A stretch of DNA of 20,000 bases from an uncultured virus (IMG/VR IMGVR_UViG_3300031555_002574) (taxonomy: Duplodnaviria > Heunggongvirae > Uroviricota > Caudoviricetes), in the IMG/VR virus record IMGVR_UViG_3300031555_002574; one strand, written 5' to 3'. The notes under the pieces were generated by a model. It had not been told where the DNA came from, ran no database searches, and was given only the letters and a program-made list of their open reading frames with translations. Of the stretch, positions 3,070-20,000 are shown piece by piece. How positions within the stretch are numbered: position 1 is the stretch's first letter; each line of letters begins with the position of its first letter. A program made the position numbers and the translations under genes.

Positions 3070-3828
3070 ATGAAAAAAGATAAAAAAGAGGCTTTAAAAA
3101 ATAAAATAGATGAAGTATTACAAGAGAAATTAGCTAAAATTAGAAATAGATTAGTTGAAGAAGAATTAGAAGAGGAAGAGGAAAAAGTAATAGAACCTTT
3201 TTTAATGTTAGATCCAGATGAAGTTGATTTGGAAGCATTAATTGAATATTGTAAAGAAGAAGGGTTAGAATTACATTTTATGGATGAAGTTGGTGAATTA
3301 CATCAATTTGAAGATTTAAATGATGTTTTACATCCAGAAGCTTGCCCTTCAGAAGAACCTTATATAAATGAAGAAGAAATAGAATATATACCAATAAATG
3401 AAGTCGAATTAAATGAAGAAGAACTACATGAATTGAATGAAGTTACAAAAGACATTGAGGCTATAGATGATTTATTAGCTATACCTTGTGAAGTAAATGG
3501 TAAAGCTGAAGTATTAGTTGATATGGTTAATTGTAATGTAAAACCTATTCCTTTATTAGGAATATATTTAATAGCACCAATTAATATTAAATTTGTAAAA
3601 GTAACATTAGATGCAGATATGCAATCGGACGAAGAGATCGAAATTGAATTCATATTTAAAAGTGGAGATCAACAGGTTATATTAAAAATGGATTTACACA
3701 CATTAGTAAATGCAGGATTAATATCGTTAGCTTGTATTGATGCTGATGAACCATTGAGAGTTTCACCAGCTGAGTTCAGAGGAATGACTCTTCCTGCGGA
3801 TATATCAGAAATAAATAAATTATTTTAA
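3070..3828 (+). CDS. Highly acidic hypothetical protein (252 aa)
   Basis: ORF track; SD GGAGG upstream; basic N-terminal helix followed by a very Glu/Asp-rich body; no family recognised. Confidence 0.85.
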   Translation: MKKDKKEALKNKIDEVLQEKLAKIRNRLVEEELEEEEEKVIEPFLMLDPDEVDLEALIEYCKEEGLELHFMDEVGELHQFEDLNDVLHPEACPSEEPYINEEEIEYIPINEVELNEEELHELNEVTKDIEAIDDLLAIPCEVNGKAEVLVDMVNCNVKPIPLLGIYLIAPINIKFVKVTLDADMQSDEEIEIEFIFKSGDQQVILKMDLHTLVNAGLISLACIDADEPLRVSPAEFRGMTLPADISEINKLF

Positions 3829-4055: not shown

Positions 4056-4099
4056 AAATAATCTATCATATAACCAGTTGGTTATATGATAGATTATTT
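4056..4099. terminator. Bidirectional intrinsic terminator between convergent genes
   Basis: Perfect 20-bp inverted repeat aaataatctatcatataacc-agtt-ggttatatgatagattattt between the stops at 4053 (+) and 4101 (-). Confidence 0.85.
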
Positions 4100-4100
4100 G

Positions 4101-4469
4101 TTAATCTTCGTTATAGTATTCATCTAATCCCTCATTTATTTCTTTTTGAGCATTATTTTCATATTCGCGTATTTGTTTAGATTTCTTAGTTTCTGGTATA
4201 ATATTATTCATAATATCATCTCTTAATTTTTTCAATTCACATAAATATTTTTTATTGTTAGTTAATCTTATTAGACTTTCAATAAAATATAGATCATTAT
4301 TCTTTGGTAATTTATGTTTAGCTGCCAATTTACATAATGCTTTACCAGCCTGAACTGATTTAACATGTGAATGACATTCATAACTAGACTTTGTATTAAC
4401 AACAACAAAACCACCGTCTGTTGTTTTTCTAACTACAAATTGATCGTATCTATAAACATAGTTATTCAT
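4101..4469 (-). CDS. Hypothetical phage protein (122 aa) downstream of endolysin
   Basis: ORF track; SD AAGGAG upstream; motifs FVVVNTK...HSHVKS...ESLIRL recall uncharacterised clostridial phage proteins (from memory, not searched). Confidence 0.8.
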   Translation of the reverse strand: MNNYVYRYDQFVVRKTTDGGFVVVNTKSSYECHSHVKSVQAGKALCKLAAKHKLPKNNDLYFIESLIRLTNNKKYLCELKKLRDDIMNNIIPETKKSKQIREYENNAQKEINEGLDEYYNED

Positions 4470-4536: not shown

Positions 4537-5424
4537 TTATACTAATTTTACATAATCTCCAGATATAAATCCTTGTTTTCCGTTAAAAATTACTCCAAAC
4601 CAACCATTTAAACAATAACCTACAGTTACTACTTGGTCTTTTTTAAGTTGACCTAATATCGTATTATATTTAGCATCATTTGGTCTTCCTGCTCTTACAT
4701 TTAAACTACTAGCAGTTACTTTAACTTTAGCATTATAAGTTCCATTTTTCCATGGTTTTCCTGTAGATGGAAGATTTACTGGTTGTGTAACTTCTTGTAC
4801 AGGTTGTTTAACTGGTGCACTTGGTGCTTTATAAGCCACACCAAAATGTTCACATATTCCTTTTAATGTTGCTTCACATAATAAATCTCTTTTGTTTTTT
4901 AATAGAGCAACACCATCTTTGTTGCTATAGAATTCATATTCAATTAATATTGCAGGTGAATTTGTATTCTTAACAACATAAAAATTATTTGATTTATGTC
5001 CTCTATTTTTAAATCCTTTATCTATAGCATATACATCTTTATATATAGCATTACAAACTTTTTTAGCTGCATCAGCTGATTTAGATGAACATCCAACAGA
5101 TGTGTAAACTTCTACACCTCTGGCAGTTGACCATCCTCCTGTACCGGCAGCGTTTGCGTGTAAACTAACATAAAGACAATTCTTTTTACCTATTTTATTA
5201 TAATATTTATTAGCTAAACTACATCTAGTTGCTAATGATACTTCAGCACCTTTTTCTGGAGTTGGGTTAACAAGATAAACTGTAAAGCCTAACTGTTCTA
5301 ATCTAGCTTTTAGTTTATATTGCATATCATTATTGAATTCCCACTCCTTTAAACTGCTATCAGGTGAACGTTTCCCTGCAGTTACAGACGCATGTCCTGC
5401 ATCTAATATTATATAATTCGCCAT
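4537..5424 (-). CDS. Endolysin: N-acetylmuramoyl-L-alanine amidase (Amidase_3) with C-terminal SH3b cell-wall-binding domain
   Basis: Zn-amidase motifs IILDAGH, LKEWEFN, VSLHANA, AILIEY; P/V/Q-rich linker; SH3_3-like C-terminus VTASSLNVRAG...NGWFGVIFNGKQGFISGDYV; no signal peptide. Confidence 0.95.
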   Translation of the reverse strand: MANYIILDAGHASVTAGKRSPDSSLKEWEFNNDMQYKLKARLEQLGFTVYLVNPTPEKGAEVSLATRCSLANKYYNKIGKKNCLYVSLHANAAGTGGWSTARGVEVYTSVGCSSKSADAAKKVCNAIYKDVYAIDKGFKNRGHKSNNFYVVKNTNSPAILIEYEFYSNKDGVALLKNKRDLLCEATLKGICEHFGVAYKAPSAPVKQPVQEVTQPVNLPSTGKPWKNGTYNAKVKVTASSLNVRAGRPNDAKYNTILGQLKKDQVVTVGYCLNGWFGVIFNGKQGFISGDYVKLV

Positions 5425-5471
5425 TAATATCTACTCCCTTCAAATTTGACAATTGAATTTCTTATTCAATT

Positions 5472-5483
5472 TAATTAGTTGTT
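5472..5483 (-). promoter_or_regulatory. Putative phage late promoter AACA-N6-TA (AACA actaat TA) for the endolysin
   Basis: Minus-strand motif ending 48 nt upstream of ATG 5424. Confidence 0.65.
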
Positions 5484-5490
5484 CCACCTC

Positions 5491-5502
5491 AACAAATATT
5501 TA
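5491..5502 (+). promoter_or_regulatory. Putative phage late promoter AACA-N6-TA (AACA aatatt TA)
   Basis: Motif ending 31 nt upstream of ATG 5533; back-to-back with the endolysin promoter, 7 bp apart. Confidence 0.65.
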
Positions 5503-5532
5503 ATAAAACTAAAATAAGGAAGTGAAATTCTA

Positions 5533-5862
5533 ATGTATAAAATACGTTTGATAAGGGACAAACTTAAACGTAAAAAAATGAAATCACATAGTAGAACAAG
5601 TAAATTCATAATAGTGTTTGTAATATTATCTTTATTTACTTATACTACTGCTGCAATTTGGTTACAATTAAGAATAGGAGTGGAAATATCACCAACACTT
5701 ACTACTTGCTTTTACGCATTTTGTACTGGAGAGCTTTGGTTACTTGCTTCTATTAAGAAGTCTAAAATTGCTAATGGGCAAAAATCTAGAGCGTATGATA
5801 CTGAAATAGATAATTACAAAGGCGAGTCTACCGTCAATAATGATGAAGAACCTAAAGGATAA
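5533..5862 (+). CDS. Membrane protein, putative holin (109 aa)
   Basis: Basic N-terminus, two hydrophobic segments (FIIVFVILSLFTYTTAAIWL; LTTCFYAFCTGELWLLASI), charged tail; adjacent to endolysin. Holin function is inferred. Confidence 0.65.
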   Translation: MYKIRLIRDKLKRKKMKSHSRTSKFIIVFVILSLFTYTTAAIWLQLRIGVEISPTLTTCFYAFCTGELWLLASIKKSKIANGQKSRAYDTEIDNYKGESTVNNDEEPKG

Positions 5863-6007: not shown

Positions 6008-7021
6008 ATGAGTAAAAAATATAATGAAGAGAACTTATTAGGTATTCATTCATTACTTATTGGTGACGGAATACCTGAAAATAATCGATACTATCGTAAA
6101 GGTTGTATAATTGTAAATGTAGGGGAAAAAAGAGAAACTGAACCTATATACATGTGTGTAGAAGATGGATACCCTGGTAAATGGATAGTTGTAGGTGCTG
6201 GAGGTGGATCTGGTGAAGGCGGTGTAGGACCTCAGGGACCTAAAGGTGATAAAGGAGAACAAGGTGAAGTTGGACCTAAAGGTGATAAAGGAGAACAAGG
6301 TGAAGTTGGACCTAAAGGTGATAAAGGAGAACAAGGTGAAGTTGGACCACAAGGACCTCAAGGTGAAAAAGGAGAACAAGGACCTAAAGGTGATAAAGGA
6401 GAACAAGGTGAAGTTGGACCTGCTGGTAAAGATGTTGATCCTGAAGTATTATTAGGAATAGAATCAAGATTAACTGAATTAGAACAACCTAAACATTCTG
6501 TAACAGGATTACCTAAAGGTGCTGTTGTTGAGTATAAAGATAATGAAATAAGAATAATGTGTCCTAATAATGCTGAATTCAAACAACAAGAAGTTGGTGA
6601 AGGAGGAAGTCCTAACATATATTATATGGCTATGACTACTCAAGCTCCAGAAGGTGCTGTTGCTTTCAATGAGGGTGATAGAGGAGTTATTGCTGAAAGA
6701 AACGTTTCACTAGAAGGTAAAAAATCAAAAACTATATGGTTAGCACTTGCTAGTCTAAGTGGTGGTGTATGGAATTACTATGGAAAAGGTTCTGCTGGAG
6801 CAAACTTAATAGGTTGGGATTATATAATAGAATGGTTAGATGCTGAAGGTAATATTATAGAAACTAACTCTATAAGAATAAATTTAACAAATGAAAATTG
6901 TCATGGTGTAAGTTTATTTACTGCTGTTAAAGAATTATCTAAGATGTTTAAGTTCAATGCTAATGGTGAACTTGAAGTAACTATAGATGGAATAACTAAA
7001 ATATTTGTACCTAAAGAATAA
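6008..7021 (+). CDS. Collagen-like phage fibre protein (337 aa)
   Basis: About 23 consecutive G-X-Y triplets (GPKGDKGEQGEV units), an N-terminal module ending MCVEDGYPGKW, and a globular C-terminal domain. Confidence 0.88.
   Translation: MSKKYNEENLLGIHSLLIGDGIPENNRYYRKGCIIVNVGEKRETEPIYMCVEDGYPGKWIVVGAGGGSGEGGVGPQGPKGDKGEQGEVGPKGDKGEQGEVGPKGDKGEQGEVGPQGPQGEKGEQGPKGDKGEQGEVGPAGKDVDPEVLLGIESRLTELEQPKHSVTGLPKGAVVEYKDNEIRIMCPNNAEFKQQEVGEGGSPNIYYMAMTTQAPEGAVAFNEGDRGVIAERNVSLEGKKSKTIWLALASLSGGVWNYYGKGSAGANLIGWDYIIEWLDAEGNIIETNSIRINLTNENCHGVSLFTAVKELSKMFKFNANGELEVTIDGITKIFVPKE
6236..6415 (+). repeat. 36-bp direct repeats encoding GPKGDKGEQGEV
   Basis: ggacctaaaggtgataaaggagaacaaggtgaagtt is exact at 6236, 6272, 6308 and 6380, with a variant unit at 6344. 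Confidence 0.95.
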
Positions 7022-8358: not shown

Positions 8359-11300
8359 ATGTCAATTAATACAGGTGATAACTTTAATTATTTAGGTAAA
8401 AAATTCCTAGATTCAAGACAATCATTTGATACGGTAGAACAAATGGTAATGTGTTCAGACGTTCCAGATGGATTTATAACATATTGTAAATCAGATGGAT
8501 TAAGATATGAATATTTATCTTCAAATGAAAATGATGAGTTATTAGGTAAATGGCGTATACACAATGGTGGTATGTCAGATGAAGAAAAAGAATTATTAAA
8601 TTTAAAATTCGATGACGTTGAAACGAATAATGAAGCCGATGAACTAGGTAACGTGTTCACAGTTATGAGATTTTTATCTAACGGAGAAGTTGTAAAAACT
8701 GTAAAATTCCAAGGTGGTGGAGGAACTGGTATGCTGGGAGGTACATTAAGCACTTCTTTACCAGAATCTTCATCAATAAACGAAAATGATAAATTAACTA
8801 TACCTTTCACATTCACATCTAACAACTGGGGTGAAGGGACTATACATATAACTATAGTTAACGGTGATACATCAAGAGAATTAATATATAGTGTTAAAAA
8901 ACAAGGTACTAGTACTGTAAATATAGGATATTTAGCTAAAGGTACTAACTATATATCTATGTACGTAGTCGATGCATTACAAAAAATGACAAATGTTGTA
9001 ACTATTACAGTAGTTTGTGGAGCTTTAGAGCTTTCATCTACTTTTGATGCTTCTAGAGACTTTGCATCATACGAAACTATAACTATACCTTTTAGAGTAA
9101 GTGCACTTAATGCTGATGAAGAACTTACATTAAATGTAGTTATAGATGGTGATGTTATATCTCAAGTTGTAGGAAATGGATATGGAAATTTCATTATACC
9201 TGAAAAATATAAAACAATAGGTGTTCATAAAGTATCAATGCAAATCGTTACAGCTACAACAATGTCAAAAGAATTGAATTATACAGTAATAGTAGTTGAT
9301 AATGCGCATATATTCTTAAGTTCTGAACAAGAAAGATACGAAGTAGAATTAGGATATGACATCCAAATACCTTATAGACTTTCTACTACAAGAATAGATT
9401 CTTATGTTGCAAAAGTGTTTATAAATGATGAATTACATCTATCAAATGAAGTTGAAGTTGGAGTTAATAAAATTTCTCTATCATATAGAATGTTCTCAAC
9501 TGGTACGTATTCAATATTAATAGATGCAGCTAATGGTGACGGAACTATAACAGATCAATTAGAGTTAACATTGGTAATAAAAGCATCATCGTTCTCAAGA
9601 ATAGAACCAGTTGAAATCGGTCTTGAAGCATTCTTTGATATGAGTACAGGAGATAATACTAGTACAACTAGAGATGTATTAGAATCTATAGTTCCAAACT
9701 CTAAGAAAGAATATTATAAAATGTACTTACATGATTACAACTATGCTACAAATGGTTGGCTAAATGGTAGACTTGTAAGTAACGGTACTGCATGGGCAGA
9801 AATAGATTATAAACCATTAGAAAACAACGTAAAAGAAGGATTTACATTTGATATCCTATTTAAAAACTATAATGTTGGTTTAAATGATGCTAAAGTTGTA
9901 AACTGTATAAGTACAGAAGCTAATAGTGTTGGGTTTGCTATAGACTCAGAGAAAGCTATAGCTGCAACAGATGCCAATACATTAAAAACATATTATACTG
10001 ATAGAGAAGATATGAGGGTAACATTTGTTGTCAATAGAGCTAGTGTTTACTACAAAGAATTTATTATAGATGAAAACGGACATTCAGTTCCAAATCCAAA
10101 TCCAACATATGAACCAAACCCTATGATACAAACTTATTTAAATGGGGTTTTAACAGATGTTGCGATGTTATCAGATACTGGAAGTGGATCTAATAAAGTA
10201 TACGAAATGTTCCAAAATGGTGAAAAAATACTTATAAATACAGATAAAATTAAATCATGTTTCGGGAACTGTGAAATAAGATCTATATTAATATATAGTA
10301 GACCATTAGAACATGAAGAAGTATTAAATAACTACATGTCAGGATTTGACGATTTAAATACTCAAAGAGAATTATATAATAAAAACTATATAACAATAGA
10401 TAACGATATGCCTACAGTTTATATAAACGATAGTGAAATAGGCGATTATAATCTAATGACTAAAGATAATAAACAATGGATGATAATTCAATATGTATCA
10501 CCAGATAAAGATAGATTCGGTGACAGTTTTGAATTAATGGGTCAAACAACATGGCAAGGTACATCATCACTTGCTTACCCAATTAAAAACTATAAATTTA
10601 AGTTATATGATTGGGCTAGAGATGAAAATGGTGAAATTATAGAAGCAACTAAATGGGATACTAGTACTTATACTAAGAAAAAAATAGATATGTATCCTAC
10701 TTCAGGCAATGGGTATAAAGAAAACGTATTCTGTTTAAAAGCTGACTATATGGATAGTTCACACTGTAGAAATACAGGTACAGCTAGAATATGTAATGAC
10801 TTCCTATTTGATGGATATCCTAACCCTGCAAAACAAATAGATCCTAAAACAAGGGATACAATCAACGGACATCCATGTCAAGTATATGTTAACGGAAGAT
10901 GGATGGGTGTATATAACTTCAACCATGATAAATCATGTACTAAATCATTAGGATTAGAAACTGTAGAACATACTGTTCGTTGGGAAATAAAAGCGAACTC
11001 AAATACATCTGCAGGGGCATTCTTTAAAACATGGAGTAATATAGAAGAATGTTATGCAGCAATAACTGCTGACTTTGAAATAGTATACGATGAAGATGCT
11101 TATGAAGGTAAAACTGGTGAGTACGATTTAACTAAATATTATGATGAGTTAGGATTCGCTTATGATGGTGATTCAGTTAAAGGTACTTACTATGATTATG
11201 CTATATTATCACTTGCTAGATTTGTAAACTTCGTTGCTACAGCAGATGAAGAAACTTGGTTAGCACATAGTGATGAATATTTTAATAAAATTCAAGCTTG

Positions 11301-14300
11301 TCGTTATTACTTAAACGTTATGACATTAGGTATGATAGACAACTTTGCTAAAAACTGTATAATCAACATGTATGGAGATGATATATGGTGGTTCAGTTTC
11401 TATGATATGGACTCCTCTTTAGGATTAGATAATACAGGATATAATAAATTTGATTGTGATATCGAACCTAGATTCGAAGGTATTTATAACTGTTCTACTT
11501 CTAATATGTGGGTTAAATTAAATGAGTGGAATCAAAATGATTTATTTGATCAATTCAAAACTATACGTGAAGATAAATATACTTATGAAAACGTATTAAA
11601 TTATCTTATAAATAATCAAATAGATCTTATACCTGCAAGACTTTATAATAAGGATATGTATAGTAAGTATATAAGTCAAGGTAGACAATATCTTCATATG
11701 TTACACGGTAATAATAAAGACCACTTAAAACGTTGGTTATATAATCGTTTCTTATATGTAGATAGTTTATTCTTACAACAAAACAGTCCATATACAAAAC
11801 AAAATATAACAGTTCGTTCTTGTGCACCAACATGGGCGGCACCAAAATATAATAGTGCAGGTGAGGTTATATCTTCTTATACTGCTAGATTCGAAATTCA
11901 AACTTATACACCACAATACGTTACTGTATGTTGGAGAAAAAATACATATGAAACAAAACGTGTTGGATGGGGAGAAACTGTAGTATTTGAACGTGATATG
12001 GTTAATGACCAAGATAATGAACTTATCATATACAACGCAACAGGTTTAAAATCATTAGGGGATATGAGTTGTAATAACCCAACATCAATAGATATAGGGG
12101 CAGCAACAAGACTTATTGAATTTAAATGTGAAAACTGTAATAAACTTGTAAAAACTGATATATCTAAAAATACTTATATGAGAAAAGCATCATTTAAAAA
12201 CTGTTCTATTTTAGGTACAGTATCAGGTGGTTCAAATGTTATAGATATTTCAACTTGTACTAACTTAACAGAAATAGATATTAGGGGTACACAACTTACT
12301 TCAGTTGTTACAGGAGGATATGGAGGTAACTTAATTAAAATACTATATCCTGAATCTATTCAAAGTATAGTTTTAGAAAATCAAGCTAACTTAGAAATTG
12401 TCGGTATACCTTATGGGTATGATAACTTATTAGAGGATAATAATTTCTTCAATATGCAAAGAAGTACGACAAATATTAGTATAGACAGTGATTTTGTATC
12501 AGTTATCGCAGGTGAGCCATTAAGATTAGGTTTATATGACGGTTACACTGTAAAAGATTGGTACACTATGAAATCAGAAATTGAAATGGTATATAGCTTA
12601 CACGTAGAAGAATATGATTTTTATCATAATTTATTAAATTCTTCTTGCTTAATAGATAAAGCATCAGTAACATATGATGTTGAAAATATCGGTTTACATG
12701 ATTTTTCTCCAAGAAGTAATACATGTTTTGTAAAACTTAAATTTGTTTGTGAAAATTTACCATTAGGAACAACTGCTATAAAAACTGCTAATGAAATAGC
12801 AAGAACGTTTAGATTATTCTATGTGGATAAATGGGAAGATTTATTATTAGCAAATAATTTAATAACTTTCAGTGCTACTGAATGTAATAAACTTAAACAA
12901 ATTAAGTACCCATATAAAGAAACTGATGAATTATCATTACAACCAGTATTAGCAGTACAAAACTTAACAATAGAAGATGCGTTCCCTAATTTAACTGAAT
13001 TTAATATTAGTGGATTTAACAATTTAGGTTACTTAACAATAATTGATATGCCTAATCTAACAAATATCAAATTCAATGACCTTATTCCTTATGGTGGGGA
13101 AAGAAAACTTAAAACTATAACTATAGGTAATACACCTAATATAACACATGTTGAATTTAACGTTTCATCTAGTGATTATGAAGTTTCATTTGCAGATGGA
13201 GCTGTAATAGATTTAGGTGCCGTTACATCAATACAAAAAATCGAATGTAATACTTTCATAAAAGGACTTTCTAAATTAATAGTTCCTACATCAATGAAAA
13301 AATTCGATTTCAACGGTACTTATGGTGACGGTATATCTAGTATAACAAATATCTGGAGTTATAATGGTATACATAGTGAGTTAGAAGGATTTGAAGGTAT
13401 AGACTTTAAAGACTTAGAACTAGAATATTTCGATATGAAAGGTATAAGTAATATAACTAATGCTATAAACTTCAATATCAGACCTACAGATACACATCCT
13501 AACTTAAATACTTTAAGGGATGGAAGTATATATAAACCATATTTTAGACCACAAGGTATATTAAATCTAGATGATTATACAGGCGATTTTGCTTATATGT
13601 GTAAAGGACTAGATTTATCTAAAATGCAAATAATATTAACTAAAAACAAACCAGACATTGTTAATTTTACTAGTTTATTTGAAGGTGCTATTGTACCTGT
13701 AGAAAGTAAACTCGACGCTCTTGTAAGAGTGAATAATTTTATCGCAAGATGTCCGAATGTACGTTATTATTCATCTATGTTTAAAGGAGCAGATATTTCA
13801 TTTGAACCTGATGAAATAGTATTAAATACTGAGCAATATATAATGATGGATAGCATGTTTGAAAACAGTAGTGTTTCTAGAGATATTGTTATACCAATAA
13901 ATGCAACTGATGTTACACACATGTTTAAAGGTTGTAAAAATATGGTTGAATATGTTAACAACTGGGAAAATCCTGAATACGATAAAGTTCCTCATGAAGA
14001 CTGTTATGCTGAAACAGGTGGAGATATGCGATTAATCGAACCTGACTGGGGAGGATTAGGATTAACAGCTAAAAACGTGAGTATATTTACAATAACTATA
14101 CCTACAGATAATTATGTTTGTCAATTAGTTCCTGAAAGTTATGAATTTACTACAGATTACGCATATATCGATTGGGGTGATAAATCAACATCGAATGGTA
14201 CTAGAGTACATACATATGCTTATGCAGGAGAATATACAGTTACTGCACAATTATCTATATTAAATCGTACTGATAGAGCTAAATTCTTAGAAGAAAATTT

Positions 14301-17300
14301 AATTTCTATTTCTCAATTAGCATATAAAACACATAGTGGTGGTTTCCGTTATTATAATGCATTAAGAGATATACAACTATCTGAAAAAAATAAATTCATC
14401 GGTAGTTGTGATTACAAGTTCTCTGGTTTAAAATTAAATTCATGGGATTTCTTAAGCAAGTTAGACACTTCAGCAATAACTAGTATGTATAGTCTATTCT
14501 ATAGAAGTAATATAACATCATTAGAACCATTAACTAATTGGAATGTTGATAATGTAACTAATATAGCTAATATGTTCGGTGGTTGTTCAGGAATAACATC
14601 GATAGAACCATTAACTAATTGGAATGTTGATAAAGTAACTAGTATGATTGAGTTGTTCAGTGGTTGTGATAAATTAACATCATTAGAACCTTTAAGAAAT
14701 TGGAATGTTGGTAAAGTAACTAATATGAATGGTATATTTGTTGGTTGTAAATCATTAACATCATTAGAACCTTTAACTAATTGGAATGTTGGTAATGCAA
14801 CTAATATTGCTAATATGTTCCGAGAATGTTCAGGATTAACATCAATAGAAGCTTTAACTAATTGGAAAGTTGATAATGCAAAAGATATGAGTTATATGTT
14901 CCAAGATTGTAAAGCAATAACATCATTAGAACCATTAACTAATTGGAAAGTTGATAATGTAACTAATATAAGTTTTATGTTCCAAGGTTGTTCAGGAATA
15001 ACATCATTAGAACCATTAACTAATTGGAAAGTTGATAAAGTAACTAGTATGGCTCATACGTTCAATAGTTGTAAAGCAATAACAACATTAGAACCTATAG
15101 CTAATTGGAATATTGATAATGTAAAAGATATGAATAATACATTCCAAGGTTGTTCAGGAATAACATCATTAGAACCTATAACTAATTGGAATGTTGATAA
15201 TGTAAAATATTTGACTAGTACGTTCGGTAATTGTACAGGATTAACATCATTAGAACCTTTAAGAAATTGGAATGTTGATAATGTAGAAGATATGCAAAAT
15301 ACGTTCATGAATTGTACAGGAATAACAACATTAGAACCATTAACTAATTGGAATGTTGATAAAGTAACTGCTATGAGTCATATGTTCGATGGTTGTAAAG
15401 CAATAACATCATTAGAACCTATAGCTAATTGGACTGTTGATAATGTAACTAATATGAAAAATATGTTCGGTTATTGTACAGGATTAACATCATTAGAACC
15501 TATAGCTAATTGGACTGTTGATAATGTAACTACTATGAATGCTATGTTCAATGGTTGTTCAGGATTAACATCATTAACAGGATTAGAAAATTGGAATGTT
15601 AGTAAAGTAGAGGATATCTCACATTTATTCAACGGTTGTACAGGATTAACATCATTAGAACCTTTAACTAATTGGAATGTTAGTAAAGTAACGTTTATGC
15701 TTAGTATGTTCAATGGTTGTTCAGGATTAACAACATTAGCAGGATTAGAAAACTGGAAAACAACTAACTTGAAAACGTTATATGCTACGTTCATGGGTTG
15801 TACTTCTTTAACATCAGCAGAAGCGATAGGTGGTTGGGATGTTAGTAATGTGTCGGATATTTATTGTCTATTCTATAATTGTACTGCATTAAAAACGTTA
15901 GAAGCTTTATCTAATTGGAACCTTAGTAATTTAAATAGTGCTCTTAATTTCCTTTCAGGATCAGGTGTAAAATATTTAAATTTAGCAAATACAACTTTAT
16001 CTAAATCTAGTGCAATGGATTTAAAAGACTATACGTATATAGAAGTAATAAGAGCTGATTATATAACAGATAAAGTAAAATTACAAGAATTAATAAATTC
16101 ATTACCAGTATCAAATAAGGATAGATATATATTTACTCCACTAGATGTAACACCTAAACAAGGATGGGTTATAAAAGACCCTAGAGTATTAGCTGTTTAT
16201 ACTTGTAGTAGACCTAATCAAGTACCTCAATGTACAGCTAACTTCACTAAAACAGAAGTAGACAATGGTGATGGAACATATACAACTACACTAAGAGTAG
16301 AAACTATGGATGATATACAAGATGTTATTTTCACTGGTATGGAATATTTGGTATCAGTAGATCTTGTAAATACTACAAATATGACTAATATGACTAATAT
16401 GTTCAAAGATTGTGTTAATTTAACTAGAGTGGATGGTAGTACTTGTAGTACTAAAAATGTAACTAATATGAATAGGATGTTTGAAGGATGTAAATCGTTA
16501 TTATCATTAAATACATTAAGTAATTGGAATACTTACAATGTAACTGATATAGATTATATATTCAGTGGTTGTTCGAAATTAACTTCATTAGTAGGACTAG
16601 AAAATTGGACTTTTACTAATATAACTAGTTTGTTAGGTATGTTCCAAAATTGTACAGGATTAACTTCATTAGAACCATTAAGAAATTGGGATGTTGATAA
16701 TATAGTTAGTTTACAAAGTTTATTCCATAGATGTAATTCAATAACTTCATTAGAACCATTAAGTAATTGGAATGTTAGTAAAGTAACTAGTATATCATAT
16801 TTATATTATGAGTGTTCGAAATTAACTTCATTAGTAGGATTAGAAGAATGGAATGTTGGTAATGCAACTGCTATAGGTTATATGTGCTATGGTTGTAAAG
16901 CATTAACTTCATTAGAACCATTAAGAAATTGGGATGTTAGCAATGTAAATAGCATGTACGGTACGTTCCAAGGTTGTTCAGGATTAACTTCATTAGAAGG
17001 ATTAGAAGAATGGGATGTTGGTAATGTAACTACTATGGAATATGCATTTATTGGTTGTAGTTCAATAACTTCATTAGAACCATTAAGAAATTGGAATGTT
17101 AGTAATGTAACTAATATGACTTATACGTTCAGTGGTTGTAAAGCATTAACTTCATTAGCAGGATTAGAAGAATGGAATGTTAGTAGCTTATCTGCTACGG
17201 CTTATACATTCTACCATTGTGATAATATAACTTCAATCGATGCATTGAGTGGATGGGATACTAATAGTTTAACTAATATAGGTTATGCATTCAATGCTTG

Positions 17301-20000
17301 TGGTTCAATAACTTCATTAGAACCATTAAGAAATTGGAATGTTAGTAAAGTAACTAGTATGTTTGGTGCATTTAGTAGTTGTAGTTCAATAACTTCATTA
17401 GAACCATTAAGTGAATGGGAAACAATAGCATTAAAAAATATGGAAGGTACGTTCACAAATTGTTCGAAATTAACTTCATTAGAAGGATTAGAAGAATGGA
17501 ATGTTGATAATGTAACTAATATGAAAGGTACATTCCAAAATTGTAAAGCATTAGCATCATTAGAATCTATAACTAATTGGAATGTTGATAGTGCAACTAA
17601 TATAAGTAATATGTTCCAAGGTTGTGAAGCATTAACAACATTAGAACCTATAACTAATTGGAATGTTGGTAGTGCAACTAATATAAGTAATATGTTCCAA
17701 GGTTGTGAAGCATTAACAACATTAGAACCATTAAGAAATTGGGATGTTAGCAATGTAAATAGCATGTACGGTACGTTCCAAGGTTGTTCAGGATTAACTT
17801 CATTAGAACCTATAGCTAATTGGAGTATTGAAAATGTAGCTAATATATCACATTTATTCACTGGTTGTACAGGATTAACTTCAATAGAACCTATAGCTAA
17901 TTGGAATATTGAAAATGTAAAAAATATGTCTAGTACATTCAACGGTTGTTCAGGATTAACAACATTAGAACCTATAGCTGATTGGACTGTTGAAAATGTA
18001 ACTACTATGAGTGCTATGATCAGTGGTTGTACAGGAATAAGTTCAGTAGAGCCATTAAGAAATTGGAATGTTAGTAAAGTAGAGGATATCTCACATTTAT
18101 TCAACGGTTGTACAGGATTAACATCGTTAGAAGGATTAGAAAACTGGAATGTTGGTAAAGTAACTACTATAAATGCTATGTTCACTAATTGTAATTCGTT
18201 AACATCATTAGAACCTATAGCTAATTGGAAAGTTGATAAAGTAACTACTATGAATACTACGTTTAGTGGTTGTAGTTCATTAACTTCATTAAAAGGATTA
18301 GAAAAATGGATTACTGTTTCTTTAACTGATATGGCTAGCGCATTCATTAATTGTGTAGGATTAACTTCATTAAAAGGAATAGAAAACTGGAATGTTGAAA
18401 ATGTAACTACTATGAATTTGACGTTCTCTGGTCTAAAAAAAATAACTTCATTAGAACCATTAAGTAATTGGAAGACTACTAAGTTATCTGATATGTTTGG
18501 TATGTTATATCAATCTTCTAATTTATCTTCAATAGAAGGATTAAGAAATTGGAATGTTAGTAATGTAACTAATATGGGTTATTTGGTATCTAGTTGTGGC
18601 TCATTAGATTCGTTAGATCCATTAACTAATTGGAACATGAACAAGGTAAATAATGTACAAGAGATGCTTGGAGGATGTACTAAGGTAAGATTCTTAAATC
18701 TAAGTAAAACTGTTTTACCTAATAGTGTATCATTACCACTTGGAAGTCTTACAGGATTACAAGTATTAAGATTAGACAACAGAACTAATAGAAGTGAAGT
18801 TCAAGAATTAATCAACGCACTACCTGCAGGCAATGATGCGATGAATCATATTTACACACCATTAGAAAACGTTGCTCCTAAACAAGGATGGACTATTAAA
18901 GACCCTAGAGTAATAGCTGTATATACTTGTACTAAAACTGGTGTGATACCTGATAATGCTCCTGCAAATGGTATTTACGAAGAAGTAGATAATGGTGATG
19001 GTACTTACACAATTACATTAAGAGTAGAATCGATAGCAGATGTAACAAATGTTTGTTTTATCGGTGATTATCGTAATGATATAAAATCTATAGAATATTT
19101 AGATATAGTTAATAGAAATTCACTTAAAGGTATATTCTATAACTGTACTTACATTAAAGATATAAATACTATAGGATGGGATGTTAGTCATATAACTGAA
19201 TTAGCTGAACTATTCTGGAATTGTTGGGAAGTGAATCCAATAGGAATAGAAGAATGGAATGTTAGTAATGTAGTTACTACATACTATATGTTCTTCAATA
19301 ATTTTAACTTAAATCTAAGTCTATTAAAAAATTGGGATGTTAGTAATGTAACTAATATGGGTGAGATGTTCAGTGGTTGTACAGGAATAACATCATTAGA
19401 ACCTATAGCTAATTGGAATGTTGAAAATGTAACTAATATGAAATATTTATTCGCTGGTCATAATGCGATAAGTTCATTAGAACCTTTAGCTGATTGGAAT
19501 GTTAGTAAAGTAACTGATATGTTTGGTATTTTCCGTGATTGTCATGGAATAAGTTCAATAGAACCTATAGCTAATTGGAATACTGATAGTGCAACTAATA
19601 TAGGTAGTTTATTCTATAATTGTGCACTAATAACATCATTGGAACCTATAGCTAATTGGAATACTGATAGTGTAACTGATATAAGTGAGATATTCTATGG
19701 TTGTACAGGATTAACAACATTAGAACCAATAAGAAATTGGAATGTTGAAAATGTAACTACTATGGGTAATACGTTCTTTAATTGTACAGGAATAACATCA
19801 TTAGAACCTATAGCTAATTGGAATGTTGGTAGTGTAAATGATATGGGTGGTATGTTCAAAGGTTGTTCAGGATTAACATCATTGGAACCTATAGCTAATT
19901 GGAATACTGATAGTGTAACTGATATAAGTGAGATATTCTATGGTTGTACAGGATTAACAACATTAGAACCAATAAGAAATTGGAATGTTGAAAATGTAAC
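8359..20000 (+). CDS. Giant multidomain protein (>3880 aa, runs off window): Ig-like / LamG-like / CotH-family kinase / LRR / PKD-like / multiple BspA(DUF285)-type LRR arrays
   Basis: SD GAGGTG and ATG at 8359 (MSINTGDNFNYLGKKFLDSRQ...). No frame +1 stop was found in the stretches translated by hand, up to ...RNWNVENV at 20000, and its absence from the ORF track fits a stop outside the window. No signal peptide. Domains are listed separately. Confidence 0.92.
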   Translation, partial: MSINTGDNFNYLGKKFLDSRQSFDTVEQMVMCSDVPDGFITYCKSDGLRYEYLSSNENDELLGKWRIHNGGMSDEEKELLNLKFDDVETNNEADELGNVFTVMRFLSNGEVVKTVKFQGGGGTGMLGGTLSTSLPESSSINENDKLTIPFTFTSNNWGEGTIHITIVNGDTSRELIYSVKKQGTSTVNIGYLAKGTNYISMYVVDALQKMTNVVTITVVCGALELSSTFDASRDFASYETITIPFRVSALNADEELTLNVVIDGDVISQVVGNGYGNFIIPEKYKTIGVHKVSMQIVTATTMSKELNYTVIVVDNAHIFLSSEQERYEVELGYDIQIPYRLSTTRIDSYVAKVFINDELHLSNEVEVGVNKISLSYRMFSTGTYSILIDAANGDGTITDQLELTLVIKASSFSRIEPVEIGLEAFFDMSTGDNTSTTRDVLESIVPNSKKEYYKMYLHDYNYATNGWLNGRLVSNGTAWAEIDYKPLENNVKEGFTFDILFKNYNVGLNDAKVVNCISTEANSVGFAIDSEKAIAATDANTLKTYYTDREDMRVTFVVNRASVYYKEFIIDENGHSVPNPNPTYEPNPMIQTYLNGVLTDVAMLSDTGSGSNKVYEMFQNGEKILINTDKIKSCFGNCEIRSILIYSRPLEHEEVLNNYMSGFDDLNTQRELYNKNYITIDNDMPTVYINDSEIGDYNLMTKDNKQWMIIQYVSPDKDRFGDSFELMGQTTWQGTSSLAYPIKNYKFKLYDWARDENGEIIEATKWDTSTYTKKKIDMYPTSGNGYKENVFCLKADYMDSSHCRNTGTARICNDFLFDGYPNPAKQIDPKTRDTINGHPCQVYVNGRWMGVYNFNHDKSCTKSLGLETVEHTVRWEIKANSNTSAGAFFKTWSNIEECYAAITADFEIVYDEDAYEGKTGEYDLTKYYDELGFAYDGDSVKGTYYDYAILSLARFVNFVATADEETWLAHSDEYFNKIQACRYYLNVMTLGMIDNFAKNCIINMYGDDIWWFSFYDMDSSLGLDNTGYNKFDCDIEPRFEGIYNCSTSNMWVKLNEWNQNDLFDQFKTIREDKYTYENVLNYLINNQIDLIPARLYNKDMYSKYISQGRQYLHMLHGNNKDHLKRWLYNRFLYVDSLFLQQNSPYTKQNITVRSCAPTWAAPKYNSAGEVISSYTARFEIQTYTPQYVTVCWRKNTYETKRVGWGETVVFERDMVNDQDNELIIYNATGLKSLGDMSCNNPTSIDIGAATRLIEFKCENCNKLVKTDISKNTYMRKASFKNCSILGTVSGGSNVIDISTCTNLTEIDIRGTQLTSVVTGGYGGNLIKILYPESIQSIVLENQANLEIVGIPYGYDNLLEDNNFFNMQRSTTNISIDSDFVSVIAGEPLRLGLYDGYTVKDWYTMKSEIEMVYSLHVEEYDFYHNLLNSSCLIDKASVTYDVENIGLHDFSPRSNTCFVKLKFVCENLPLGTTAIKTANEIARTFRLFYVDKWEDLLLANNLITFSATECNKLKQIKYPYKETDELSLQPVLAVQNLTIEDAFPNLTEFNISGFNNLGYLTIIDMPNLTNIKFNDLIPYGGERKLKTITIGNTPNITHVEFNVSSSDYEVSFADGAVIDLGAVTSIQKIECNTFIKGLSKLIVPTSMKKFDFNGTYGDGISSITNIWSYNGIHSELEGFEGIDFKDLELEYFDMKGISNITNAINFNIRPTDTHPNLNTLRDGSIYKPYFRPQGILNLDDYTGDFAYMCKGLDLSKMQIILTKNKPDIVNFTSLFEGAIVPVESKLDALVRVNNFIARCPNVRYYSSMFKGADISFEPDEIVLNTEQYIMMDSMFENSSVSRDIVIPINATDVTHMFKGCKNMVEYVNNWENPEYDKVPHEDCYAETGGDMRLIEPDWGGLGLTAKNVSIFTITIPTDNYVCQLVPESYEFTTDYAYIDWGDKSTSNGTRVHTYAYAGEYTVTAQLSILNRTDRAKFLEENLISISQLAYKTHSGGFRYYNALRDIQLSEKNKFIGSCDYKFSGLKLNSWDFLSKLDTSAITSMYSLFYRSNITSLEPLTNWNVDNVTNIANMFGGCSGITSIEPLTNWNVDKVTSMIELFSGCDKLTSLEPLRNWNVGKVTNMNGIFVGCKSLTSLEPLTNWNVGNATNIANMFRECSGLTSIEALTNWKVDNAKDMSYMFQDCKAITSLEPLTNWKVDNVTNISFMFQGCSGITSLEPLTNWKVDKVTSMAHTFNSCKAITTLEPIANWNIDNVKDMNNTFQGCSGITSLEPITNWNVDNVKYLTSTFGNCTGLTSLEPLRNWNVDNVEDMQNTFMNCTGITTLEPLTNWNVDKVTAMSHMFDGCKAITSLEPIANWTVDNVTNMKNMFGYCTGLTSLEPIANWTVDNVTTMNAMFNGCSGLTSLTGLENWNVSKVEDISHLFNGCTGLTSLEPLTNWNVSKVTFMLSMFNGCSGLTTLAGLENWKTTNLKTLYATFMGCTSLTSAEAIGGWDVSNVSDIYCLFYNCTALKTLEALSNWNLSNLNSALNFLSGSGVKYLNLANTTLSKSSAMDLKDYTYIEVIRADYITDKVKLQELINSLPVSNKDRYIFTPLDVTPKQGWVIKDPRVLAVYTCSRPNQVPQCTANFTKTEVDNGDGTYTTTLRVETMDDIQDVIFTGMEYLVSVDLVNTTNMTNMTNMFKDCVNLTRVDGSTCSTKNVTNMNRMFEGCKSLLSLNTLSNWNTYNVTDIDYIFSGCSKLTSLVGLENWTFTNITSLLGMFQNCTGLTSLEPLRNWDVDNIVSLQSLFHRCNSITSLEPLSNWNVSKVTSISYLYYECSKLTSLVGLEEWNVGNATAIGYMCYGCKALTSLEPLRNWDVSNVNSMYGTFQGCSGLTSLEGLEEWDVGNVTTMEYAFIGCSSITSLEPLRNWNVSNVTNMTYTFSGCKALTSLAGLEEWNVSSLSATAYTFYHCDNITSIDALSGWDTNSLTNIGYAFNACGSITSLEPLRNWNVSKVTSMFGAFSSCSSITSLEPLSEWETIALKNMEGTFTNCSKLTSLEGLEEWNVDNVTNMKGTFQNCKALASLESITNWNVDSATNISNMFQGCEALTTLEPITNWNVGSATNISNMFQGCEALTTLEPLRNWDVSNVNSMYGTFQGCSGLTSLEPIANWSIENVANISHLFTGCTGLTSIEPIANWNIENVKNMSSTFNGCSGLTTLEPIADWTVENVTTMSAMISGCTGISSVEPLRNWNVSKVEDISHLFNGCTGLTSLEGLENWNVGKVTTINAMFTNCNSLTSLEPIANWKVDKVTTMNTTFSGCSSLTSLKGLEKWITVSLTDMASAFINCVGLTSLKGIENWNVENVTTMNLTFSGLKKITSLEPLSNWKTTKLSDMFGMLYQSSNLSSIEGLRNWNVSNVTNMGYLVSSCGSLDSLDPLTNWNMNKVNNVQEMLGGCTKVRFLNLSKTVLPNSVSLPLGSLTGLQVLRLDNRTNRSEVQELINALPAGNDAMNHIYTPLENVAPKQGWTIKDPRVIAVYTCTKTGVIPDNAPANGIYEEVDNGDGTYTITLRVESIADVTNVCFIGDYRNDIKSIEYLDIVNRNSLKGIFYNCTYIKDINTIGWDVSHITELAELFWNCWEVNPIGIEEWNVSNVVTTYYMFFNNFNLNLSLLKNWDVSNVTNMGEMFSGCTGITSLEPIANWNVENVTNMKYLFAGHNAISSLEPLADWNVSKVTDMFGIFRDCHGISSIEPIANWNTDSATNIGSLFYNCALITSLEPIANWNTDSVTDISEIFYGCTGLTTLEPIRNWNVENVTTMGNTFFNCTGITSLEPIANWNVGSVNDMGGMFKGCSGLTSLEPIANWNTDSVTDISEIFYGCTGLTTLEPIRNWNVENV
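9601..10335 (+). other. LamG / concanavalin A-like beta-sandwich domain within the giant ORF
   Basis: Motifs GLEAFFDM, EGFTFDILFK, RVTFVVNR, QTYLNGVL and EIRSILIYSRPLEHEEV match the Laminin_G_3 pattern. Confidence 0.7.
10405..11766 (+). other. CotH-family atypical protein kinase domain within the giant ORF
   Basis: Ordered motifs: MPTVYI, WQGTSSLAYPIKNYKFKL (10552), FCLKADYMDSSH (about 10730), VYVNGRWMGVYNF, DNFAKN (11338), FYDMDSSLG (11398), LKRWLYNRFLYVD. Confidence 0.8.
12000..14055 (+). other. Degenerate LRR solenoid region with an inserted non-LRR segment (about 12420-12850)
   Basis: Repeats such as IDISTCTNLTEIDIRGTQLT and PNLTEFNISGFNNLGYLTI, later SMFKGA/HMFKGC units, ending in an IEPDWGG cap-like motif. 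Confidence 0.6.
14080..14255 (+). other. PKD-like domain
   Basis: YIDWGDKSTSNGTRVHTYAYAGEYTVT matches the PKD signature WGD...HTY..G.YTV. Confidence 0.75.
14460..15960 (+). repeat. LRR array 1: 18 tandem 81-bp / 27-aa BspA/DUF285-like repeats
   Basis: Trp codons every 81 nt from 14539 to 15916; consensus TSLEPLxNWNVxxVTxMxxMFxGCxGL. Confidence 0.93.
16370..18680 (+). repeat. LRR array 2: 27 regular 81-bp repeats plus about 2 degenerate leading units
   Basis: Trp codons every 81 nt from 16525 to 18631; same consensus as array 1. Confidence 0.93.
19120..20000 (+). repeat. LRR array 3 (at least 11 repeats, truncated by window end)
   Basis: Trp codons at 19177, 19255 and 19333 (78-nt spacing), then every 81 nt to 19981. 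Confidence 0.92.

What the first reader, a model, noticed from the sequence alone, without database searches (positions are those of the whole stretch)
14460..20000. LRR repeats have a fixed scaffold with hypervariable positions, like an antibody or VLR repertoire
Seen: scaffold codons (aca/act tca tta gaa cc. ... aat tgg aat gtt ... gta act ... ttc ... tgt) are nearly constant even at silent sites. The positions in xMxxMFxx differ in almost every repeat: NIANMFGG, SMIELFSG, NMNGIFVG, DMSYMFQD, SMAHTFNS, YLTSTFGN, AMSHMFDG, DISHLFNG, FMLSMFNG. Changes fall mostly at codon positions 1-2 with a retained third-position T (aat/agt/gat/tat/gct/act/ttt/cat/ggt). Inference: strong diversifying selection on one face of the solenoid, producing variable ligand-binding surfaces for host-range adaptation.
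Basis: partly seen in the sequence, partly recalled or inferred. Interest (0 to 1): 0.7.

Follow-up and report, generated by a model that had tools for sequence, protein, structure and literature searches.

The report
Fast-diversifying repeat array in phage fibre
A giant gene of an uncultured animal-gut jumbo phage, related to the tail-fibre gene that a Bacteroides phage mutates with a retroelement, instead carries more than 50 copies of a 27-residue repeat whose probable binding residues have changed faster than silent DNA positions, which suggests a retroelement-free way of varying an adhesion protein.

Summary
Observation largely confirmed. Window 14512-19953 holds 52 in-register 81-bp DUF285/PARCEL units in three capped blocks, inside a >3880-aa ORF cut by the contig end. 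Unit positions 19, 20 and 23 (the x of xMxxMFxx) carry 13, 11 and 15 amino acids while silent bases mostly keep one letter; whole-unit pN 0.34 exceeds pS 0.27. Neutral simulations never reach this diversity; pooled omega is 2-2.6 under conservative settings (p 0.005-0.09) and 7-12 under others. The scaffold is not fixed: units share only 46% amino-acid identity and scaffold omega is about 0.8-1.8, so the silent baseline is uncertain. This is not a DGR: no reverse transcriptase, no template, silent adenines spared. The N-terminal CotH core is homologous to the hankyphage DGR-target tail fibre. Homologous CotH-DUF285 proteins with 99-100% identical cores differ by whole 26-residue units and new face residues. 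The AlphaFold model is an internalin/SDS22-like LRR solenoid; the one-face mapping is inferred, not measured. Best reading: unit copying plus diversifying selection on an adhesin, all variants displayed in one chain, as in fungal NLR repeats rather than antibodies or VLRs. The scan earlier noted giant LRR fibre genes in another jumbo phage.

The parts
8359..20000 (+). Giant ORF, at least 3880 aa, open at the 3' end (the window ends at the contig end); CotH core followed by DUF285/PARCEL LRR modules; probable fibre or adhesin
8761..12408 (+). Conserved core (aa about 135-1350) shared with the hankyphage DGR-target tail fibre (24%, E 5e-41), Bacillus phage G gp353 (27%, E 4e-119) and loci L001-L005
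10555..11355 (+). CotH-like domain (Pfam PF08757, 25.6 bits, cut-off 23.8)
14512..15969 (+). Repeat block A, 18 units of 81 bp / 27 aa
15970..16497 (+). Spacer A/B: probable C-cap, linker domain with NGDGTY motif, and N-cap of the next block; 39% identical to spacer B/C
   Evidence: cap roles inferred
16498..18684 (+). Repeat block B, 27 units
18685..19386 (+). Spacer B/C with irregular first units
19387..20000 (+). Repeat block C, 7 full units and a partial one, cut by the contig end
15588..15653 (+). 66-bp exact in-register copy of 18060-18125 (unit A14 and B20, across blocks, covering the variable codons)
16910..16998 (+). 89-bp exact in-register copy of 17720-17808 (B6 and B16)
17589..17648 (+). 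60-bp exact copy of 17670-17729 (B14 and B15, adjacent duplication)
19631..19757 (+). 127-bp exact copy of 19874-20000 (C4 and C7); runs into the contig end, so it may be a recent three-unit duplication or an assembly effect
6008..7021 (+). Upstream collagen-repeat gene, tail-fibre-like; context only

Best explanation
The ORF encodes a very large, probably virion-borne fibre or adhesin: a CotH-type core shared with other phage fibre proteins, followed by capped DUF285/PARCEL leucine-rich-repeat modules. In this lineage the 27-codon unit was expanded and is still copied in register within and between blocks (unequal crossover or gene conversion; the phage encodes a UvsX-like recombinase). Ordinary point mutations at codon positions 1-2 of the residues around M-F-x-x-C (unit positions 19, 20, 23, 26, less so 17, 24, 27) were favoured, so nearly every turn shows a different polar/aromatic strip (S, N, Y, G, Q dominate). 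The result is many different binding patches along one chain, with array content turning over between strains. Shown: repeat anatomy, copying, excess amino-acid change, LRR fold of the model, core homology, absence of an RT in the records searched. Inferred: that the sites form one exposed face, that the protein is on the virion, that the ligands are host surface molecules or gut glycans, and that the selection concerns host range.
For: pN 0.60-0.69 at positions 19, 20, 23 against four-fold silent difference 0.205 (saturation 0.57), and whole-unit pN 0.342 > pS 0.266. 46 of 55 minority four-fold codon boxes keep the site's third base (p 2e-7 against 0.5), so variant codons are as young as the scaffold; Thr21 is ACG in 11 of 15, one step from ATG. 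Site omega with one silent rate: 5 (CI 4-6.5) at 19 and 23, 2.5 at 20, 3 at 26 under conservative frequencies. Neutral simulations at the observed silent divergence give at most 6-9 amino acids at these sites against 13, 11, 15, 10 seen, and stay below even near saturation. Exact in-register copies of 127, 89, 66 and 60 bp. Homologues P0086/P0217: 12 mismatches in 1400 N-terminal residues, two 26-aa indels, 29 of 49 units of P0217 match no unit of P0086 exactly, differences at F-3, F-2, F+1, F+2, F+4, F+5 in 16-20 of 49 units against 0-2 of 49 at M, M, F, C. P0113/P0215/P0216: 0 differences in 1300 N-terminal positions, 26-aa indels, 8 of 37 units new. Strain contigs differ by 1.0-1.4% (X7) in the N-terminal half but 6-10% in listed pieces of the repeat region. 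Model pLDDT 97, LRR solenoid, best matches Roco LRR Z 14.1 and internalin A Z 12.4. Core homologous to the hankyphage gene annotated as tail fibre with a variable repeat at its 3' end.
Against: With a free silent rate per site, only position 20 (p 0.009) and the scaffold position 1 (p 0.014) show beta > alpha in 52 units, and no variable site does in the 40-unit subset; silent rates at 19 and 23 are also raised. Scaffold and hydrophobic-core omega come out at 0.8-1.8, higher than a constrained core should give, so the silent baseline may be too low and all omegas inflated. Recombination between units breaks the tree the site models use. The simulations cap each site at the amino acids observed, which biases them downwards. 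In the L001-L005 lineage the same positions show 0 of 85 changes between near-identical strains (silent difference about 5%) and pN about equal to pS between species: not hypervariable there. No close strain sequence of the window's own array could be read site by site. The model shows a 3-10 helix and one bridge per turn, no regular strand at the variable sites. No virion proteomics or binding data; P0086 and P0113 are not shown to be phage proteins.
Confidence: 0.6

Rival explanations
1. Relaxed constraint, not positive selection: the exposed positions of any PARCEL repeat tolerate most polar residues, and the apparent omega above 1 comes from an underestimated silent rate (strong AT bias, selection to keep DNA homology) and from recombination artefacts.
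For: PARCEL repeats are generally variable at these positions and the describing paper leaves neutral drift open (PMC2996958, section 6). Scaffold omega 0.8-1.8. Weak single-site tests. Face pN about equal to pS between relatives.
Against: Neutral simulations with the AT bias built in, with and without conversion, do not reach the observed residue numbers even at silent divergence 0.52, 2.5 times the observed. Variant codons keep the ancestral third base (46 of 55). Face beta is 3-7 times scaffold beta in the pooled fits.
Confidence: 0.22
2. Selection for divergence between units, for folding fidelity or to stop the array collapsing by recombination, rather than for new ligands.
For: Excess amino-acid change extends to non-face sites such as 1, 7, 8, 14, 21, 27; 48 of 52 units have a unique 19/20/23 triplet.
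Against: Silent sites, the cheapest way to lower DNA homology, stay conserved (344 of 364 third-base A in seven scaffold columns). The residues chosen (S, N, Y, G, Q) are typical of binding surfaces (recalled). The homologous gene's C-terminus is the diversified part in hankyphage.
Confidence: 0.1
3. Templated mutagenesis: a diversity-generating retroelement or similar mutator, encoded elsewhere in the phage or host, rewrites the variable codons (AAT to NNT).
For: NNT codons dominate at 17, 20, 24 (141 of 156); homologues of the core are known DGR targets; G000 is a 69.7-kb fragment, so unseen DNA remains.
Against: No PF00078 match in G000 or in 5 of 5 related records, two of them 94-100% complete. 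No template-like copy on the contig (listed outside hits at most 28 bp, E 0.047 or worse). Third-base adenines in the scaffold are kept in 344 of 364; non-A positions do change (27 of 104 third bases at 19 and 23 are A; GTT to ACT at 12).
Confidence: 0.04
4. The protein is not a virion adhesin but a host-surface or intracellular phage product (for example superinfection exclusion, or a decoy binding host defence proteins), and the arms race is with those partners.
For: No direct tail-fibre profile hit for the ORF (PHROG matches are of unknown function); DGR 'group 3' CotH proteins have no established function; no ligand known.
Against: The hankyphage homologue follows the tape-measure, baseplate and minor tail genes and is annotated as tail fibre; the window gene follows a collagen tail-fibre-like gene.
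Confidence: 0.15

Closest known systems
PARCEL / DUF285 / TIGR02167 repeat proteins (Roske et al. 2010, PMC2996958; abstract, section 6 part 1 of 2 and passages read), including phage copies such as vB_VhaM_pir03 ORF200 (PMC7765460, two table passages read)
   Same: Same repeat family (19 Pfam and 41 TIGR02167 stretches); conserved hydrophobic scaffold with variable polar positions, nearly every unit unique.
   Different: 27 rather than 25-26 residues, with LEPLxNW in place of LDLSNW; recent homogenisation visible at silent sites; the paper has no occurrence of 'synonymous' or 'gene conversion' and leaves selection against drift open; no dyad signal seen here by folding (mean z -0.27 over 49 two-unit windows).
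CotH-core giant phage proteins: hankyphage tail fibre / DGR target (PMC6199706, PMC12135933, passages read), DGR 'domain group 3' (bioRxiv 10.1101/2024.11.15.621889, two passages read), phage G gp353, phrog_9915
   Same: About 1200 aa of homologous core with a CotH-like domain; a variable C-terminal region; phrog_9915 spans both the core and the DUF285 repeats.
   Different: Hankyphage diversifies one C-type-lectin tip by adenine mutagenesis with RT, TR and Avd next to the gene; here there is no RT or template, and diversity is spread over more than 50 tandem units.
Fungal NLR repeats with high internal conservation (Podospora HET-D/E WD40, ANK, TPR; Dyrka et al. 2014, PMC4986451, passages read)
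   Same: Repeat shuffling, repeat-number polymorphism and positive selection on 3-5 positions per unit.
   Different: Different fold and organism; no NOD domain; units here are far older (best 108-aa identity 67%, below the 85% criterion); surface mapping not demonstrated here.
Lamprey/hagfish VLRs and antibodies (recalled)
   Same: LRR solenoid with variable x positions in an LxxLxLxxN-like segment; hagfish VLR is among the fold matches (Z 9.9).
   Different: VLRs are assembled somatically from donor cassettes, one receptor per cell; here all variants lie in one germline ORF and no cassettes were found on the contig.

Membership tests
DUF285 / PARCEL repeat proteins | Match to PF03382 and TIGR02167 above curated cut-offs | tested here: met
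   1044.5 bits (cut-off 25); 916 bits, 41 stretches (cut-off 30)
DUF285 / PARCEL repeat proteins | Tandem units with conserved hydrophobic and variable polar positions | tested here: met
   per-position table
DUF285 / PARCEL repeat proteins | Dyad symmetry of the coding repeat | tested here: inconclusive
   DNA folding of 49 two-unit windows against mononucleotide shuffles: mean z -0.27, minimum -3.0; not the motif method of the paper
CotH-core giant phage proteins (hankyphage fibre, DGR group 3, phrog_9915) | More than 2000 aa with a CotH-like domain and a homologous core | tested here: met
   PF08757 25.6 bits; blastp E 5e-41 and 4e-119; phrog_9915 E 7e-69
CotH-core giant phage proteins (hankyphage fibre, DGR group 3, phrog_9915) | Component of the virion tail | not testable with these tools
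   annotation and gene context only
Diversity-generating retroelement target | Reverse transcriptase gene in the element | tested here: not met
   0 of 1 own record and 0 of 5 related records; the own record is a fragment
Diversity-generating retroelement target | Template repeat differing only at adenines | tested here: not met
   no unit-length copy outside the array on the contig
Diversity-generating retroelement target | Variation confined to template adenines | tested here: not met
   344 of 364 scaffold third-base A kept; T and G positions vary
Fungal NLR-type highly conserved repeats | At least 85% identity over 100 aa between repeats | tested here: not met
   best four-unit identity 67%, mean unit identity 46%
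Fungal NLR-type highly conserved repeats | Concerted evolution (repeat exchange, copy-number change) | tested here: met
   exact copy tracts; 26-aa indels in homologues; no alleles of the window gene itself
Fungal NLR-type highly conserved repeats | Positive selection at a few positions per unit | tested here: met
   moderate strength,
Fungal NLR-type highly conserved repeats | Selected sites map to the binding surface | tested here: inconclusive
   register inferred from SDS22 alignment and DSSP; coordinates not available to me
VLR / antibody-type repertoire | Donor cassettes and somatic assembly or hypermutation | tested here: not met
   no cassettes on the 69.7-kb contig; DUF285 matches only inside this ORF
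LRR solenoid fold | Structural match to solved LRR proteins | tested here: met
   model pLDDT 97; Z 14.1, rmsd 2.1, 133 of 162 aligned to 5il7; Z 12.4 to 1o6s

The most novel reading that the evidence does not exclude
One family of giant CotH-core phage fibres has evolved two interchangeable ways to vary its business end: a DGR-mutated lectin tip in temperate Bacteroides phages, and, in lytic jumbo phages, an RT-free LRR array that is rewritten between strains by in-register unit copying plus positive selection, displaying dozens of different binding patches on one virion protein and setting host range or gut adhesion.
Probability: 0.35. Interest if true: 0.72.

Novelty: new variant of a known kind. 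Interest (0 to 1): 0.5.

Why it matters
DUF285/BspA-type repeats are common in gut phages, giant viruses and mycoplasmas but have no known ligand, and whether their variability is selected was left open in 2010. This locus gives quantitative, if moderate, evidence for selection and names the positions to test. The homology to the hankyphage DGR target ties an unannotated jumbo-phage gene to a fibre family and suggests how phages without a retroelement diversify the same protein. The evolutionary pattern itself (repeat exchange plus positive selection) is known from fungal NLRs, so the novelty is the fold, the host and the link to DGR targets. Literature searches found no paper on it: DUF285 + phage (22 papers, 21 listed, none on this by title or abstract start), BspA + leucine-rich repeat + jumbo phage (2), phage G + gp353 (0), leucine-rich repeat + tail fiber + CotH + phage (1 listed), (0 each); most subscription journals are not in the library.

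Tried and rejected
DGR: rejected. Codon usage or next-base context as the cause of T retention: rejected. 'Old variable codons in a homogenised scaffold': rejected by third-base concordance. My first M1a/M2a fit did not converge (mixture weights stayed at their starting values) and is not used. A full codon tree search timed out; it was redone on a fixed topology. Searches for close strains of the array failed: exact pattern in viral contigs 0 hits; blastn of the core against GenBank phages no match; spacer and pre-array queries gave only unrelated DUF285 proteins or nothing; protein searches found nothing above 58% identity; the ORF is not in the protein collection. The one read-laying run (31) used 4 of 23 listed runs, all assembled contigs; it showed 40 of 526 variant sites and 32 of 2489 pieces, repeat bins are inflated by cross-mapping, so it gives piece-level divergence only, and the divergent pieces could be further modules beyond the contig end. 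No solved DUF285 structure by sequence (only SDS22, TpLRR, internalin, F-box LRR hits). No model of the spacer was obtained. Antisense ORFs over the array (15054-15308, 15471-15794, 17283-18347) are treated as shadows of the repeat. The ESM Atlas call returned DUF285 clusters only. Supplements of the papers were not read; the DGR preprint's supplement might list group-3 proteins with DUF285 arrays.

Full report
Setting. The window is the last 20 kb of a 69,712-base virus record with 27% G+C. Of 16 proteins from the rest of the contig that I scanned, several match RNA polymerase beta subunits, a UvsX-like recombinase, topoisomerase II, a DnaB helicase and a virion protein; split multi-subunit RNA polymerases point to a phiKZ/AR9-type jumbo phage (recalled), and related records reach 231-266 kb, so the record is a fragment. 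Runs holding the DNA are animal faeces and bovine gut metagenomes. An amidase-SH3 endolysin upstream suggests a Gram-positive host (inference).

Anatomy. One ORF runs from 8359 to the contig end, 3880 codons without a stop. The C-terminal half matches DUF285 (1044 bits) and TIGR02167 (41 stretches). I cut 52 complete 81-bp units in three blocks, separated by two spacers that are 39% identical to each other; similar spacers occur in other giant DUF285 proteins such as P0010 and P0086, so the protein is a chain of capped modules. The N-terminal half has a CotH-like domain and aligns over about 1200 residues with phage G gp353 and with the Bacteroides hankyphage gene that is annotated as tail fibre and carries a DGR variable repeat at its 3' end, next to TR, RT and Avd. 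Papers describe that gene as the DGR target with a C-terminal C-type lectin (PMC6199706, passages) and as the tail fibre (PMC12135933, passages); a preprint groups such proteins as large CotH-containing variable proteins (10.1101/2024.11.15.621889, two passages). phrog_9915, of unknown function, spans both core and repeats.

Checking the observation. All nine quoted motifs are present. Positions 19, 20 and 23 of the unit hold 13, 11 and 15 amino acids; 24 and 26 hold 10 each; 48 of 52 units have a unique 19/20/23 triplet. Silent codon choice is position-specific, and third-position T at the variable sites exceeds what codon usage and context predict. But the scaffold is not fixed: mean identity between units is 46% in amino acids and 67% in bases.

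Is it selection? Tree-free counts give pN 0.342 against pS 0.266 for the whole unit and pN 0.60-0.69 at 19, 20, 23, while four-fold sites differ by 0.205 against a saturation level of 0.57. 46 of 55 minority four-fold codon boxes keep their site's third base, so variant codons arose from the local codon by changes at positions 1-2, faster than silent change. Codon models with one silent rate give omega 5, 2.5, 5 and 3 at 19, 20, 23, 26 under conservative base frequencies and 6.5-17 under others. Neutral simulations with the AT bias reach at most 6-9 residues per site at the observed silent divergence and 9-12 near saturation; 36 runs with gene conversion reached at most 10. Against this: single-site tests with free silent rates are significant only at position 20 and scaffold position 1; scaffold omega is 0.8-1.8, so the baseline may be low; recombination disturbs the tree; the simulations cannot exceed the observed residue sets. 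I judge positive selection likely, its size uncertain.

How the array changes. Exact in-register copies of 127, 89, 66 and 60 bp link units, one pair 2.5 kb apart in different blocks, and the silent base of codon 2 switches from ACA throughout block A to ACT in the first half of block B: local and long-range copying. A DGR is not involved on present evidence: no RT in the record or in 5 of 5 related records, two nearly complete, no template copy, scaffold third-base adenines kept in 344 of 364.

Between strains. No allele of this array could be read in full. Assembled contigs of run X7 differ from the window by 30 of 2991 and 37 of 2691 bases in the N-terminal half but 21 of 202 and 28 of 463 in listed pieces of the repeat region; X10 and X9 show the same trend (27 of 327; 26 of 538), X2 shows no differences; such pieces might also be unseen modules. 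Two clusters of homologous CotH-DUF285 proteins (27-34% identical to the window core; not shown to be viral) give clearer evidence: cores 99-100% identical, arrays differing by whole 26-residue units, and 29 of 49 units of P0217 without an identical unit in P0086, the changes falling on the x positions and sparing M, M, F, C. Against generality: in five IMG/VR relatives (65% identical in the core) about 17-19 older units stand in fixed order; near-identical strains show 0 of 85 face changes, and between species face pN (0.33-0.49) only equals saturated pS, though it is 6-14 times the core's pN. Fast turnover is thus a state of some lineages.

Structure. A six-unit model (pLDDT 97, pTM 0.90; alignment of 8 window segments) has a 3-10 helix at positions 5-7 and one bridge at 17 per turn and matches internalin/Roco/SDS22-type LRRs (Z 12-14) and many viral BspA-like models. 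The profile alignment to SDS22 puts V-T-N-M-x-x-M-F-x-x-C on the L-x-x-L-x-L-x-x-N segment, whose x positions line the binding side of LRRs (recalled). This places the selected sites opposite the helix, but exposure was not measured.

Comparison and verdict. The repeat is a DUF285/PARCEL member, and its scaffold-plus-variable pattern was described in 2010 without a test of selection. It works like fungal NLR repeats (exchange plus positive selection; PMC4986451, passages) but fails their 85% identity criterion, and it is not an antibody- or VLR-like system. I took the fungal comparison from earlier notes of this scan and checked it against the paper; another note reports giant capped LRR fibre genes in a different jumbo phage. 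What is added here is the selection analysis, the strain-level unit turnover in homologues, and the link to the hankyphage DGR target. New variant of a known kind; interest 0.5.

Noticed in passing
proteins P0132-P0137, P0139, P0140, P0143, P0147, P0157, P0158, P0165: Thirteen 394-aa DUF285 proteins, several from contigs of about 250 kb, have the same length but three of them show the inner units shifted by one repeat, a sign of unequal exchange at constant length.
   Followed up: partly
window 4056-4099: Perfect 21-bp inverted repeat with a 2-base loop between the convergent ORFs 3070-3828 (+) and 4101-4469 (-); probably a bidirectional terminator.
   Followed up: no
window 6008-7021: Collagen-repeat gene with 36-bp tandem units, tail-fibre-like by PHROG; lies with two small unknown genes directly upstream of the giant ORF.
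   Followed up: partly
window 4537-5862: Amidase_3-SH3 endolysin on the minus strand, divergent from a 109-aa ORF with a hydrophobic stretch that may be a holin (holin is my guess).
   Followed up: no
G000 whole record: The record is rated 100% complete although it is a 69.7-kb piece that ends inside a gene and whose relatives exceed 230 kb.
   Followed up: partly
L011 7207-13374 (phage G gp353): The same core is followed by a different, TpLRR-like repeat region, a third C-terminal type for this family.
   Followed up: partly
P0010: 3607-aa protein with no CotH core but the same 27-residue unit type and similar spacers, ending in unrelated domains; modules seem to move between genes.
   Followed up: partly
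window 2-2953 (-): 1120-aa ORF with no Pfam or PHROG match in the part scanned.
   Followed up: no
L007 125-5960: A 20% G+C contig encodes a 1945-aa DUF285 protein with a membrane-like C-terminus that looks eukaryotic.
   Followed up: no
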